Positions 15,001 through 18,000 of a DNA stretch of 64,000 bases are shown here, one piece after another. Source of the DNA: Trueperaceae bacterium (GTDB lineage: Bacteria; Deinococcota; Deinococci; Deinococcales; Trueperaceae). Each line of letters begins with the position of its first letter. The stretch's first letter is position 1. The position numbers are program-made. Where the stretch lies: assembly GCA_034521815.1 (NCBI GenBank), contig JAXHLW010000013.1, positions 1,056,001 through 1,120,000 of the forward strand. Reading direction: 5' to 3'.

Positions 15001-18000
15001 TCGCATCCGTCGCGCTCGCTCCCCTGGCACCGTCGCTCATGACGCTCACTGTAAGGCGGGCAGCGGCGTCGATGCGCCAGCGCTCCTGGACGCTCGCTCT
15101 CCGCTCGTCCGGGCTCGTTCCGTCAGGTACGCCGCGATCTCGGCCGGAATGTCCACGCCGGTGGGCCCGACCGAGTTCCTGAACTCGAGGCCGTGGTTGA
15201 CCTCGCTCACCAGCAGGCCGCGCGACGACTCCAGCAGGTCGACCGCCAGCACGCCGCCGCCGACGGCCCCAGCGGCTGCGAGCGCGATCCGCTCCAGCGC
15301 GGCGTCGACCGCCACGCCGCGCACGACGGCGCCGCGGGCCGTGTTCGTCCGCCAGTCGTCGCCCTCGCGAGCGATGGCGGCGACGACCCGGTCTGCGACC
15401 ACGAAGGCGCGCAGGTCCCGGCCCGGCTTGTCGACGTGCTCTTGGACGTAGAACAGCTGGTGCGACGGTCCGCCCAGAACCTGCTTGTGCTCGAGCAGCG
15501 CATGAATCGCATCGGCGTCGCGGCAGCGGGCGACCATGCGTCCCCAGCTTCCGACGACGGGCTTGACGACGACGGGCCAGCCCAGCTCCTCGCACGCCCC
15601 GATCACCGTCTCGGGCGAGAAGGCCAGGAAGGTGCGCGGCTGCGGCACCCCGGCAGCGGCCAGGGCCGCGCTGGTGGCCGCCTTGTCGCCGCACGTCTCG
15701 ATCACCCGGGCGCGGTTGACGACGTCGGCGCCATCGGCCTCGAGCGCCCTGGCGATCGCCAAGGTGCGGGCGTGCGAGAGCGTGCGCAGCAACACCACCT
15801 CGCCGTCGATGCGGCGTGCGCCCGCCTCCCAGCGCCAGTGCGGGGCGTAGACCCGCTCGACGTCGGCTCCGGCCCGCTCCAGGGCCGCGAAGAGCATCGT
15901 CTCCTCCGGCCGCAGGCGATCGTGAACCAAGGCGACCTTGGGCGCGGAGCCGCCGACCGCGGACACGCCCGCGGACACGCCCGCGGGGCTCACTCGCCCC
16001 AGTCCTCGGCCTCCTCGGGCGCGGGCTCGAAGCGAAGCGGCTCGAGCGACACGACCTCGAGCTCCACGCCGTCATCGCTCACGACGAGCTCTCCGAGCTC
16101 GAGGAGAGCGGTGTCGACGTCCAGACGGCCGTACGGGGTGGTCAGGGTCTGCATGGGGGTCGCCTTTCCGGGCGTTCGGCATCGCCGGAGGGCCGGACGA
16201 TCGCCTTCGATTCTTAAGTCGCCCTGCGCGACGTGCGGGTTCCAGCGTGGACGCCGCATCGCGTGCGACCTGCATGCTACGCGTCCGTGGCATTTTCGTC
16301 AAGACCGTCCAGCACACGTATTTGTACGGTTTCGATACCGCGCGTCGATCGCCCTCGGCGCCGACGAAGCGGCGAAGGCGACATCGCCGACACCTCCGAT
16401 GTCCGAGCTCGAACCGCTCACTCCTTTCGATTCGTAGGCCGGCGTGCGAGCGTCGTCGCGGTCCCACCACACGGGTACGCTGACCCGATGGACGATCCTG
16501 GTCAGGCGTCGGGGCACGCGTCGGTTCACGCGGCTGGATCGTGCGCTGGGTCGTGCGCTGGTGTCCTGGTTCGAGCAGCGCGCCCGCCCGTTCCCATGGC
16601 GCACCGAGCGCACGCCGTACCGGGTCTGGGTGGCCGAGGCGATGCTGCAGCAAACGCGCGCCGAGACGGTCGTCCCCTACTTCCTGCGGTGGATGGACAC
16701 GTTCCCGACGGTGAGCGACCTCGCCCGTGCCGAGGTGGAGCAGGTGCTGGCGGCGTGGGAGGGCTTGGGCTACTACCGGAGAGCCCACGCCCTGCACCGA
16801 GCCGCTCGTCGGATCGTGACCTGCGACGGAGGCCGGTTTCCGAGCGACGAGGCGGGCTGGCGAAGCCTGCCCGGCGTCGGGCCGTACACCGCGGCGGCCG
16901 TGGCCGCCTTCGCGCTGGGGCACCGAACCGTCGCGGTCGACGGCAACGTTCGGCGCGTGGGCGCGCGCCTACGCGCCGACGCGGCGCCCGTCGACGCCGA
17001 GCTCAGGCAGACGCTGGCGCCCCTGCTCCCGGCCAGCGACCCCGCACGCGGCACCGAAGCGCTGATCGAGCTCGGAGCGACCGTGTGCAGCCCGCGCGCG
17101 CCGGACTGCGGGGCCTGTCCGCTCAGACCCGGCTGCGCAGGCGCCGCCATGGGCGAGCCGACCGCGTTCCCCGCCCGCCTCCGTCGCGCGTCCGTCCCGA
17201 CCCGTCGCCGCTGGGCGCTCGTCGCCCTCGACGAGGACCGCATCTGGCTGGAGCGACGGCCCGAAGGCGGGCTTCTGGGCGGTCTCTGGGGCGTGCCGCA
17301 GCGCGAGACCGCGCCGCACGGTCGCCCGCTTCCCGAGGTCCGCCACGCCTACTCGCACTTCGCGCTCCGGCTCGTGCCCGTCTTGGTGGACGGTGCTCCC
17401 CCGCCGCCCGAAGACGGGCGCGACGCCGGCTGGAGCGGGCCCGAGCAGCGTGCCCGGCTGCCGCTGTCGAAGGTCGACCGGATGGTTCTCTCTCGCCTCC
17501 GCGAGGCTGGCCTGCTAGCCTCGTGAGGTGACGTTCCGAGTCCGTTTCGCCGAGACCGACCAGATGGGTGTCGCCCATCACGCCGCCTACGTCGTCTGGC
17601 TGGAAGCCGCCCGCGTCGAGTGGATGCGCGAGCGCGGGCTCTCCTACCGCGAAATGGAGGATTCCGGCGTCTCCATGGCGGTCTCCGGACTGGAGCTCCG
17701 CTACCGCCGTGCGGCGCGGTTCGACGATCTCCTACGGGTCGACTGTCGCCTGGTCGCGCTGCGGAGTCGCTACGGGCGCTACGCCTACCGACTCCTGAAC
17801 GAGCAGGACGAGCTCGTCGCCAGCGGAGCGACCGATCACGTCCCCACCGACCGTCGAGGCCGTGCGATGCGGCTTTCCAGCGCTTGGCTGGACGCGCTCG
17901 GGCCGCACGTGGAGCCCGAAGCGGGCGGCTGAAGTGGTCGACGGCCTGCGTCCGCCTTAGGCGGCGCCCACGAGCACGGACGGGTATGCTCCGGTTCGAA

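What a model noticed while it worked through the whole genome (the two positions that open the first line are those of the whole stretch)
15990..16154. LysW amino-group carrier protein without its zinc-binding cysteines
The 54-residue LysW of the lysine (aminoadipate) cluster has no cysteine at all: the four Cys of the zinc ribbon of characterised LysW are replaced or deleted, while the C-terminal EDWGE tail and the central strands are kept. The same holds in the sister species and in 110 of the 120 closest homologue clusters, so a whole clade uses a zinc-free carrier.
Evidence so far: TIGR01206 60.6 bits (cut-off 53.2) and LysX, LysZ, LysJ, LysK, ArgC-family neighbours; PF21344; alignment to solved LysW 3wwl_A, VVCEDCGAELEVV v VVSDD-GVELEVV, models match residues 18-54 only; G005 orthologue Cys-free; Cys counts 0 in 110, 4 in 8, 2 in 2 clusters.
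(Added by a program. Inside this text positions count along the whole contig: contig position 1,056,001 is position 1 of the stretch shown here. "Call 12" and the like, gene names such as g00115 and contig names such as C1 are that model's own, and its searches are not shown. The text may have been shortened before it was handed on; [...] marks where a part breaks off. The agent that wrote the report below was given it as the finding of a first reader that could run no searches.)

Follow-up and report, generated by a model that had tools for sequence, protein, structure and literature searches.

The report
Cysteine-free LysW lysine carrier protein
This small gene encodes the carrier protein of the aminoadipate route to lysine in a form that has lost all four zinc-binding cysteines, a loss that also turns out to be the usual state in Deinococcus and most Trueperaceae.

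Summary
Window 15990..16154 (-) encodes a 54-residue LysW with no Cys or His. It scores 60.6 bits on TIGR01206 (cut-off 53.2) and heads a lysW-lysX-lysY-(ORF)-lysZ-lysJ-lysK cluster.

- In the window's own family, 91 of 104 genomes whose LysW I read are Cys-free and 13 keep four Cys. One genus holds both forms.
- Deinococcus, named type strains included, carries a second Cys-free form of 57 residues.
- All 106 distinct Cys-free sequences read fall into two classes: TPYG/SDDG turns, or NPDTG/DDETG.

AlphaFold2 predicts the LysW fold at pLDDT 91.4, also from a Cys-free-only alignment. The best solved matches are all LysW chains. The former knuckle positions are almost invariant.

Carrier type does not follow the tree of the neighbouring ligase LysX. 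Cys-free and four-Cys carriers have therefore been swapped in nature.

Ribosomal zinc sites stay intact in the same genomes, so the loss is specific to this gene.

Verdict: a real, functional, probably metal-free variant of a known carrier. No metal analysis exists, and the key closed-access papers could not be read. Interest is moderate.

The parts
15990..16154 (-). lysW: 54-residue amino-group carrier protein with no Cys. Former zinc knuckles read T6-P7-Y8-G9 and S26-D27-D28-G29; the tail reads EDWGE and ends in Glu54. The coordinates include the stop codon.
   Evidence: sequence; TIGR01206 60.6 against 53.2; PF21344 31.9 against 27; 3wwl_A, E 4.1e-13; pLDDT 91.4; conservation.
16163..16169 (-). 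GGAAAGG, a Shine-Dalgarno-like stretch 8 bases before the lysW ATG.
   Evidence: Read directly from the sequence printed. Not tested for function.
16274..16302 (-). Promoter-like site TTGACG-17-TAGCAT, about 120 bases upstream of lysW.
   Evidence: 2 sites found in 7.6 kb against 0.1 expected from shuffles. This is a consensus match only.
15046..15993 (-). lysX: ATP-grasp ligase that loads aminoadipate on LysW. Its GTG start overlaps the lysW stop (GTGA). It carries GSWGR at residues 148-152.
   Evidence: TIGR02144 316.6 against 275.6; PF22626, PF08443; junction and motif. The start codon is the longest-ORF start, and the family match begins at residue 20.
13931..15070 (-). lysY (ArgC family): [LysW]-aminoadipyl-phosphate reductase. 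The 5' end is not fixed, because the frame stays open further upstream.
   Evidence: TIGR01850 357.4 against 233.6; PF01118, PF22698.
11863..12702 (-). lysZ: [LysW]-aminoadipate kinase. The 5' end is approximate.
   Evidence: NF010659 391.5 against 223; PF00696.
10575..11780 (-). lysJ-like class-III aminotransferase. The 5' end is approximate.
   Evidence: the best match is NF042418 LysJ at 452.8, below its cut-off of 700, and TIGR00707 gives 407.9 against 410. (PF00202). The assignment to LysJ rests on gene position.
9461..10459 (-). lysK-like M20 hydrolase that would release lysine from LysW.
   Evidence: NF003367 339.3, below its cut-off of 363; TIGR01902 249.3 against 163.1; PF01546.

Best explanation
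The gene encodes a working LysW, the small acidic amino-group carrier of the alpha-aminoadipate route to lysine.

By analogy with the Thermus thermophilus system:
- LysX, the next gene, whose start overlaps the lysW stop, links the amino group of aminoadipate to the gamma-carboxyl of the C-terminal Glu54.
- LysZ phosphorylates the carried intermediate, LysY reduces it and LysJ transaminates it.
- LysK cuts lysine off.
- Throughout, the acidic globular part of LysW docks on basic patches of each enzyme.

What differs is how the globular part is held together. The Cys4 zinc site of the characterised proteins is gone. The two zinc knuckles are replaced by two conserved tight turns, T-P-(Y/H/W/F)-G and (T/S)-D-(D/E)-G, so the five-stranded fold most likely stands without a metal.

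This form and the four-Cys form are functionally interchangeable. In nature they have replaced each other next to closely related LysX ligases.

Shown here: the sequence, the family scores, the gene order, the conservation, the predicted fold, and the mismatch between the carrier and the ligase tree.

Inferred: every catalytic step, the absence of metal, and that the swaps were neutral or adaptive.
For: Identity:
- TIGR01206 and PF21344 score over their cut-offs and the EDWGE tail is invariant.
- There are 15 acidic and 2 basic residues.
- lysX is adjacent in 58 of the 61 loci then held. The three others are an unrelated weak hit and two loci cut by contig ends.
- LysX carries GSWGR. PMC10433800 (passages) names this motif as the partner of EDWGE.

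Pathway:
- The genome holds a single LysW.
- No dapB was found in the genome, which is 83.5% complete.
- A separate ArgJ (372.2 bits against 298) and a second ArgB-like gene exist. The cluster is therefore not needed for arginine.

The N-terminal half is under constraint (89 Cys-free family sequences):
- T6 in 88, P7 in 73, an aromatic residue or His at position 8 in 88, and G9 in 89.
- T, S or A at position 26 in 89, D27 in 86, E or D at position 28 in 89, and G29 in 88.
- pN/pS is 0.56 for residues 2-17 and 0.26 for residues 18-30.

Fold:
- AlphaFold2 gives pLDDT 91.4 and pTM 0.71 with a mixed alignment.
- It gives pLDDT 91.4 and pTM 0.70 with 89 Cys-free sequences only, with the same strands at 2-6, 9-13, 23-25, 31-37 and 40-44.
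- Foldseek ranks 1-7 are all LysW chains. 5eio_C fits at rmsd 2.0 over 48 columns, and the next hits have E above 1.
- VIA-align gives Z 5.5 to 4.1 for five LysW chains, against 2.9 or less for the rest.

Interchange:
- L206 and L215 have a LysX 90% identical to Calidithermus/Meiothermus LysX, whose own carriers have four Cys. Their LysW, however, is the Deinococcus Cys-free type, 77-81% identical.
- The four-Cys locus L039 of genus g17 has a LysX 83-85% identical to those of the Cys-free loci L177 and L171. Its LysW is 45-47% identical to theirs.
Against: - No metal content, folding or activity was measured. The model comes from a program that does not see metals and was trained on solved LysW structures.
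- Family profiles match only residues 18-54, so the N-terminal hairpin is assigned by prediction and conservation alone.
- Residues 2-17 are the least constrained part (pN/pS 0.56), and synonymous differences are near saturation (pS 0.64), which makes these ratios rough.
- VIA Z-scores of 4-5 are modest in absolute terms for so small a domain.
- LysJ and LysK score below their equivalog cut-offs.
- The genome is incomplete, so 'no dapB' is not proof of absence. A LysA-like gene exists at 293.7 bits against 297.9.
- No RNA data bear on expression.
Confidence: 0.8

Rival explanations
1. The domain still binds a metal, through oxygen ligands instead of thiolates. In the Deinococcus form the four ligand positions read N, T, D, T inside NPDTG and DDETG. 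In the window's form Thr, Ser, Asp and Asp sit there. A hard ion such as Mn2+, Ca2+ or Mg2+ could take the place of zinc.
For: Oxygen-bearing side chains are conserved at or beside all former ligand positions: T6 in 88 of 89, T or S at position 26 in 85 of 89, D27 in 86 of 89 and D or E at position 28 in 89 of 89. All 20 distinct D-type sequences keep [NS]P[DE][ST]G and D[DE][DE]TG.
Against: The same residues fit a plain hydrogen-bonded turn. The second knuckle of the window's form is one residue shorter than CxxCG (alignment), which changes the geometry of a four-ligand site. Nothing here measures metal. The whole protein is acidic, so Asp and Glu are expected everywhere (15 of 54 residues).
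Confidence: 0.1
2. The N-terminal half is no longer a folded domain. Only the acidic strands and the EDWGE tail matter, and the protein works as a largely disordered acidic tag.
For: Family models match only residues 18-54. Residues 2-17 evolve fastest (pN/pS 0.56).
Against: T6, G9 and an aromatic residue at position 8 are nearly invariant across 89 sequences from 27 genera. AlphaFold2 gives pLDDT 94-96 for residues 1-40 in both runs, with a regular hairpin at 2-6 and 9-13. pN/pS stays below 1.
Confidence: 0.06
3. The carrier serves a pathway other than lysine, such as ornithine/arginine or a secondary metabolite, or serves lysine and ornithine together as in Sulfolobus and Thermococcus.
For: LysZ and LysY of Thermus accept glutamate-loaded LysW in vitro (PMC12998189, abstract). 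LysJ and LysK here score below their lysine-specific cut-offs.
Against: LysX and LysZ pass the lysine-specific equivalog cut-offs (TIGR02144 at 316.6, NF010659 at 391.5). The genome has its own ArgJ and a second ArgB-like gene. No dapB was found, so lysine needs this route. No biosynthetic-cluster genes lie around it.
Confidence: 0.05
4. The gene is decaying or is an assembly artefact.
For: One relative, G250 (locus L103), has a broken frame.
Against: The frame is intact and conserved in 90 other genomes of the family. The tail has pN/pS 0.07. Identical sequence is found in contigs of runs X1 and X2, with no indels in four runs. The start and stop overlap with lysX.
Confidence: 0.01

Closest known systems
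LysW of Thermus thermophilus (PDB 3WWL, 3WWN, 5EIN, 5EIO)
   Same: Same length of 54 residues. The sequence is near-identical from residue 18 to the EDWGE end (E 4.1e-13). The position in front of lysX is the same, and the predicted fold matches.
   Different: The Thermus protein binds zinc through four Cys (PMC10433800, passages). Here CPECG reads TPYG and CEDCG reads SDDG, one residue shorter, with no Cys or His at all.
LysW of Deinococcus species (for example D. geothermalis DSM 11300, D. maricopensis, D. aquatilis DSM 23025, D. saxicola DSM 15974)
   Same: Also Cys-free, also annotated as LysW, also next to lysX. It belongs to the same phylum.
   Different: It is a separate solution: 57 residues, with ligand positions replaced in place (NPDTG and DDETG) and no shortening. 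It matches TIGR01206 over its full length at about 100-112 bits, against 50-60 bits for the window's type. One Deinococcus-group genome, G079, keeps four Cys in the same 57-residue frame. This points to a loss independent of the one in the window's family.
Four-Cys LysW of other Trueperaceae (genera g2, g4, g9, g20, g26, g29, g32, g57 and part of g17)
   Same: Same family of organisms, same LELGEL core and EDWGE tail, same lysW-lysX arrangement.
   Different: These keep CPECG and CDDCG. They amount to 13 of 104 genomes read. The g32 row rests on the unpublished genome G252.
C+ and C- forms of small bacterial ribosomal proteins (Makarova, Ponomarev and Koonin 2001, 'Two C or not two C')
   Same: Both show recurrent loss of the Cys ligands of a zinc ribbon with the fold kept, plus lateral exchange of the two forms. 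The LysW pattern repeats this in a metabolic carrier.
   Different: Those proteins are ribosomal. The two forms often coexist as paralogues switched by zinc supply (PMC10450194, passages). G000 holds one LysW only. I saw the 2001 paper only as a reference entry and as described in PMC10450194. Its content is otherwise recalled.
Adenylate kinase lid domain, Cys4-zinc in some bacteria and a hydrogen-bonded His/Ser/Asp/Thr set in others
   Same: A small zinc site is replaced by polar side chains that hold the same fold. The N/T/D/T set of the Deinococcus LysW resembles it.
   Different: It is a different protein and fold. This comparison is recalled from memory and comes from no call.

Membership tests
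LysW / amino-group carrier protein (TIGR01206, PF21344) | Profile score over the curated cut-off | tested here: met
   TIGR01206 gives 60.6 against 53.2, and PF21344 gives 31.9 against 27. Both match residues 18 onward only.
LysW / amino-group carrier protein (TIGR01206, PF21344) | C-terminal EDWGE with a terminal Glu as the attachment site | tested here: met
   The protein ends ...EAEDWGE followed by the stop. E50, D51, W52, G53 and E54 are invariant in 126 aligned sequences.
LysW / amino-group carrier protein (TIGR01206, PF21344) | Small, strongly acidic protein | tested here: met
   54 residues, with 15 Asp or Glu against 2 Arg or Lys.
LysW / amino-group carrier protein (TIGR01206, PF21344) | Encoded beside a LysX-type ATP-grasp ligase and the LysZ, LysY, LysJ and LysK enzymes | tested here: met
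   for all five enzymes. The lysW stop overlaps the lysX start and LysX carries GSWGR. lysX is adjacent in 58 of 61 loci.
LysW / amino-group carrier protein (TIGR01206, PF21344) | Globular beta fold as in solved LysW | tested here: met
   This rests on prediction only. pLDDT is 91.4 in two runs. The top seven Foldseek hits are LysW chains. VIA Z is 4.1-5.5 for LysW chains against 2.9 or less for others.
LysW / amino-group carrier protein (TIGR01206, PF21344) | Covalent loading with aminoadipate by LysX and release of lysine by LysK | not testable with these tools
   This needs biochemistry or genetics.
Cys4 zinc ribbon (the metal-binding class to which characterised LysW belongs) | Two CxxC knuckles supplying four zinc ligands | tested here: not met
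   0 Cys and 0 His. The ligand positions read T, Y or G, S and a deletion in the alignment to 3wwl_A. I therefore do not file it as a zinc ribbon in the metal-binding sense. It is a LysW with a ribbon-derived fold.
Cys4 zinc ribbon (the metal-binding class to which characterised LysW belongs) | Bound zinc | not testable with these tools
Bifunctional LysW/ArgW of archaea (NF041070) | Profile score over the cut-off | tested here: not met
   22.9 bits against a cut-off of 75.

The most novel reading that the evidence does not exclude
LysW may be a metabolic counterpart of the C+/C- ribosomal proteins. On this reading, two alternative alleles, zinc-bound and zinc-independent, move between lineages of Deinococcota and are selected by zinc supply, oxidative stress or temperature. 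The Cys-free forms would win in the mesophilic, desiccation- and radiation-exposed lineages because a zinc-thiolate site is an oxidation-sensitive liability in an essential carrier. A bolder variant is that the oxygen-rich replacement site, above all the N/T/D/T set of Deinococcus, binds Mn2+ or Ca2+ instead.
Probability: 0.15. Interest if true: 0.65.

Novelty: new variant of a known kind. Interest (0 to 1): 0.45.

Why it matters
The literature I could read treats the four cysteines as a conserved feature of LysW-like carriers. [quoted passage not shown]

The data here show that the zinc site is dispensable, in three ways:
- Two different metal-free replacements of the site exist.
- Together they dominate two families of Deinococcota.
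- Nature has placed Cys-free carriers in front of ligases whose closest relatives use zinc-bound carriers.

This has three consequences:
- There are ready-made, oxidation-proof, metal-independent scaffolds for work on carrier-protein-mediated amino acid and natural-product pathways.
- Genome mining for such carriers by CxxC motifs will miss them. 33 of 107 hits in the window's family fall below the TIGR01206 cut-off.

It is not a new kind of system. Loss of zinc-ribbon ligands is a known evolutionary theme.

Tried and rejected
- Expression: no RNA holder is listed among the 21 runs found for window 15000-16400.
- RNA elements: no Rfam family matched at E 0.1 or better in 9000-18000 on either strand, so no riboswitch or leader was seen upstream of lysW. 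No terminator-like site was found.
- A proteome-wide loss of zinc sites was tested and rejected for this small sample. The sample was seven ribosomal families in G000, G183 and G086 (Cys-free LysW) and in G268 and G149 (four-Cys LysW). uS14 has four Cys in 5 of 5. bL36 and bL33 have three in 5 of 5. bL32 has four in 4 of 4 and bS18 three in 4 of 4; both were not found in G000. bL28 has four in 4 of 5. bL31 lacks CxxC in 5 of 5. Five genomes give no statistical weight.
- Literature: six full-text searches found no paper that notes a Cys-free LysW. The structural papers PMC4281745, PMC4858999 and PMC5076833 are not held. Horie 2009 and Ouchi 2013 have no PMC id in the reference list I read. Their alignments or supplements may already show the Deinococcus sequence.
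- The ORF at 12663..14096 (-) inside the cluster matched no Pfam or NCBIfam family.
- I did not send a complex prediction. LysW with LysX is a textbook carrier-enzyme pair with solved relatives, and a pass would not have changed my odds.
- My first motif classifier put every Cys-free sequence under 'other' because of wrong spacing. The corrected one is.
- On counting independent losses, the LysX trees need at least 4 changes of state (57 rows, quick tree) and at least 10 (119 rows, FastTree, 6 forced by starred branches). All Cys-free forms fall into just two sequence classes. I therefore read most of these changes as replacement of lysW rather than repeated loss. I ran no AU test and no species-tree reconciliation.
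Full report
**1. What is there**

The minus strand of window 15990..16154 holds an ATG-started ORF of 54 codons. 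Its product is MQTLTTPYGRLDVDTALLELGELVVSDDGVELEVVSLEPLRFEPAPEEAEDWGE. It has no Cys and no His, with 15 acidic and 2 basic residues.

A GGAAAGG stretch lies 8 bases before the ATG. A promoter-like TTGACG-17-TAGCAT lies about 120 bases upstream.

The stop codon overlaps the GTG start of the next gene, as GTGA.

The protein passes the curated cut-offs of TIGR01206 (60.6 against 53.2) and PF21344 (31.9 against 27). Both profiles, and the solved Thermus LysW (3wwl_A, E 4.1e-13), align only from residue 18 onward.

**2. Surroundings**

Downstream on the same strand lie these genes:
- LysX, with TIGR02144 at 316.6 bits and GSWGR at residues 148-152.
- An ArgC-family LysY, with TIGR01850 at 357.4.
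- An ORF without any family match, at 12663..14096.
- LysZ, with NF010659 at 391.5.
- A LysJ-like aminotransferase, with NF042418 at 452.8, under its cut-off of 700.
- A LysK-like hydrolase, with NF003367 at 339.3, under its cut-off of 363.

The genome is G000, 2.63 Mb and 83.5% complete. Searches of it gave the following:
- It holds one LysW.
- No dapB was found.
- A LysA-like gene sits just under its cut-off.
- Two homocitrate-synthase-like genes lie elsewhere.
- It has its own ArgJ and a second ArgB-like gene.

The cluster is therefore best read as the lysine branch, as in Thermus, beside a separate acetyl-based arginine route.

**3.

The word-indexed search found 126 relatives at E 0.001 or better among 127 candidates, and 120 are listed. 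Of those 120, 110 have no Cys, 8 have four and 2 have two. The two-Cys rows are a mis-extended Cys-free protein and a truncated four-Cys protein.

Names given by sources point to Trueperaceae.

**4. How far the trait reaches**

A profile scan of 301 genomes of the phylum found LysW in 280.

In the window's own family, 107 of 128 genomes gave a match. I read the LysW of 104 of them.
- 91 are Cys-free. They come from 26 genera plus two genomes of genus g17.
- 13 keep four Cys. They come from eight genera plus the two other genomes of g17.
- Three genomes (G254, G271, G312) gave only a paralogue-like hit.

Among the 91, G250 has a broken frame, two are cut by contig ends and one has a masked N-terminus. 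The four-Cys row of genus g32 rests on the unpublished genome G252. Without it the count is 12 of 103.

The 21 family genomes without a match are 62-99% complete, so they are not evidence of absence.

Outside the family:
- All 16 Thermus/Meiothermus-group loci read have four Cys.
- All 14 top-scoring loci of group g35 have none.

Exact look-ups and a scan of named genome records identify g35-type sequences as Deinococcus LysW. They occur in D. geothermalis DSM 11300, D. maricopensis, D. aquatilis DSM 23025, D. saxicola DSM 15974, D. caeni NBRC 101312, D. marmoris, D. hohokamensis, D. petrolearius, D. antarcticus, D. alpinitundrae and others. All are 57 residues long and Cys-free.

Of the 80 named loci, 55 are Cys-free, 24 have four Cys and one is truncated.

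Five low-scoring g35 genomes have four Cys.
- Four carry a Chloroflexi-like LysW and LysX.
- One, G079, carries a 57-residue protein in the Deinococcus frame with all four Cys in place.

In a profile search of 1.84 billion representative proteins, 462 matched at E 0.001 or better. Of the best 150, the core holds four Cys in 94, none in 21, five in 12, two in 15 (mostly truncated), one in 5, three in 2 and six in 1. That profile was built mostly from Cys-free sequences, so these shares are biased toward them.

One near-Cys-free form comes from a Planctomycetota assembly.

**5. Two solutions**

All 152 distinct LysW cores read from loci fall into three classes.
- 46 are four-Cys ribbons.
- 86 are of the window's type. 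The first knuckle is T-x-(Y/H/W/F/Q)-G and the second is (S/T/A)-(D/E/A)-(D/E)-(G/S), the motif used. The second knuckle is one residue shorter than CxxCG.
- 20 are of the Deinococcus type. NPDTG and DDETG replace the knuckles in place.

Within 89 sequences of the window's type, the former knuckle positions are close to invariant.
- T6 occurs in 88, P7 in 73, an aromatic residue or His at position 8 in 88, and G9 in 89.
- T, S or A at position 26 occurs in 89, D27 in 86, D or E at position 28 in 89, and G29 in 88.

Pooled pN/pS over 42 coding sequences is as follows:

| Residues | pN/pS |
|---|---|
| 2-17 | 0.56 |
| 18-30 | 0.26 |
| 31-44 | 0.22 |
| tail | 0.07 |

Synonymous differences are near saturation, so these are rough figures. 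None of them suggests decay.

**6. Fold**

AlphaFold2 gives pLDDT 91.4 and pTM 0.71 with a mixed alignment of 126 sequences. As a control, an alignment of 89 Cys-free sequences only gives pLDDT 91.4 and pTM 0.70. Both runs place strands at 2-6, 9-13, 23-25, 31-37 and 40-44.

Foldseek ranks seven LysW chains first. 3wwn_B has E 5.7e-4, 5eio_C fits at rmsd 2.0 over 48 columns, and 3vpb_E has TM 0.71. Everything else has E above 1.

VIA-align gives Z 5.5, 5.1, 4.7, 4.5 and 4.1 for five LysW chains, and 2.9 or less for the rest.

These are predictions. The program sees no metal and has seen LysW structures in training.

**7. Carrier type against the ligase tree**

lysX sits beside lysW in 58 of the 61 loci then held.

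On a LysX tree of 57 rows, the Deinococcus-type and the Thermus-type loci each form a starred clade. The family's four-Cys and Cys-free loci are interleaved, and at least 4 changes of state are needed.

With 119 rows (FastTree), at least 10 changes are needed, 6 of them forced by starred branches.

Pairwise figures make the point without a tree.
- L206 and L215 are labelled Meiothermus sp. and Thermaceae by their depositors. Their LysX is 90% identical to Calidithermus and Meiothermus LysX and 59-69% identical to Deinococcus LysX. Their LysW is the Deinococcus Cys-free type, 77-81% identical to Deinococcus and 60-73% to Meiothermus.
- In genus g17, the four-Cys locus L039 has a LysX 83-85% identical to those of the Cys-free loci L177 and L171, and 79% and 73% identical to those of the four-Cys loci L045 and L034. 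Its LysW is 45-47% identical to the former pair and 79% and 65% identical to the latter pair.
- Also in g17, the flanking genes are about as alike between the two forms (83-86%) as between the two four-Cys loci (84-88%). LysX falls from 91% to 75-76%. L178 and L179 stand for the Cys-free g17 genomes here, because their LysW is identical to those of G247 and G183.

The Cys-free forms come in only two classes. I therefore read most of these changes as replacement of the small lysW gene, sometimes together with lysX, rather than as many separate losses. I count at least two independent losses, one for each class. This reading is an inference, and I ran no topology test.

**8. Why the site was lost**

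I tested one idea, that these genomes shed zinc sites in general.

Seven small ribosomal proteins known to bind zinc in Thermus (PMC10450194, passages) were read in three Cys-free-LysW genomes and two four-Cys-LysW genomes. Their Cys patterns do not follow the LysW state:
- uS14, bL36 and bL33 keep their Cys in 5 of 5.
- bL32 and bS18 keep theirs in 4 of 4 found.
- bL28 keeps four Cys in 4 of 5. G000 shows only a Cys-poor form and is incomplete.

The loss is therefore specific to LysW in this small sample.

DNA of the window's lysW region turns up in sediment and salt-pan metagenomes. Four runs of two studies hold half or more of the sampled words. I draw nothing further from this.

**9. What is known**

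Passages of PMC10433800 state that TtLysW and TkLysW bind zinc through four Cys. They say that LysW proteins have 'four or three' such Cys, and that the four Cys are 'conserved in LysW-like proteins'.

Several papers treat Deinococcus or Truepera lysine genes without mentioning cysteines or zinc in LysW, in the passages found:
- PMC3356886 (passages).
- Preprint 10.1101/2021.12.28.474397 (passages).
- PMC12998189 (abstract, passages and reference list).

PMC11726168 (passages) describes carrier recognition as electrostatic, which fits the interchange seen here.

Six full-text searches found no paper that reports a Cys-free LysW. The papers that solved the structures, and the two discovery papers, could not be read.

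Cys-free LysW sequences have long been public and are annotated as LysW. They score about 100-112 bits over the whole TIGR01206 model. This suggests that such sequences helped to build the model, which is an inference.

**10. Verdict**

This is a member of the LysW carrier family by every feature I could test except the zinc site. It is not a zinc ribbon in the metal-binding sense.

New relative to what I could read are four points:
- The zinc site is dispensable.
- Two distinct replacements of it exist.
- The replacements are conserved.
- The natural exchange of carrier types shows functional equivalence.

Loss of zinc-ribbon ligands is a familiar theme in ribosomal proteins, so a specialist would be interested rather than astonished.

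My confidence is 0.8 for a functional, metal-independent LysW. Interest is 0.45.

Noticed in passing
L136-L141 (G164, G320, G157, G171, G220, G185): Some Trueperaceae genomes with a Cys-free LysW also encode a second, four-Cys LysW-like zinc-ribbon protein. It has an acidic tail that does not end in EDWGE, and it matches TIGR01206 positions 2-50 at about 24-41 bits. G000 has none. Its role is unknown.
   Followed up: partly
window 12663..14096 (-): A long ORF sits between lysY and lysZ inside the lysine cluster and matches no Pfam or NCBIfam family. In this G+C-rich DNA it may or may not be a gene, and overlapping ORFs exist on the other strand.
   Followed up: partly
L143-L146 (G075, G107, G012, G035): Four genomes of the Deinococcus group carry a four-Cys LysW and a LysX that cluster with Anaerolineales/Chloroflexota sequences (99*) rather than with other Deinococcus. 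This looks like a lateral replacement of the lysW-lysX pair.
   Followed up: partly
G086 C1:543932-547086 and C1:927891-928097 (L237, L238, L258): G086 holds Cys-poor second copies of bL33 and uS14 about 3 kb apart, and of bL28 elsewhere, beside its Cys-bearing copies. This is the usual look of a zinc-starvation set.
   Followed up: no
G000 C13:278440-278646 (L257): The only bL28 found in the window's genome is the Cys-poor type. bL32 and bS18 were not found at all. The genome is 83.5% complete.
   Followed up: no
L103 (G250): The lysW of this genome has its N-terminus in another frame and no stop after EDWGE. This is either a frameshift or an assembly error.
   Followed up: no
window 16444..17526 (+) and 17528..17932 (+): A MutY-like gene (HhH-GPD plus NUDIX_4) lies divergent from lysW, followed by a 4HBT thioesterase.
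   Followed up: no
group g36 genomes: Thermus-group genomes give 3-4 matches to the LysW profile each, against one in most Deinococcus-group and Trueperaceae genomes. I did not look at the extra copies.
   Followed up: no
P0298: A Planctomycetota assembly encodes a LysW with only one Cys left at the four ligand positions. This is a further, unrelated erosion of the site.
   Followed up: no
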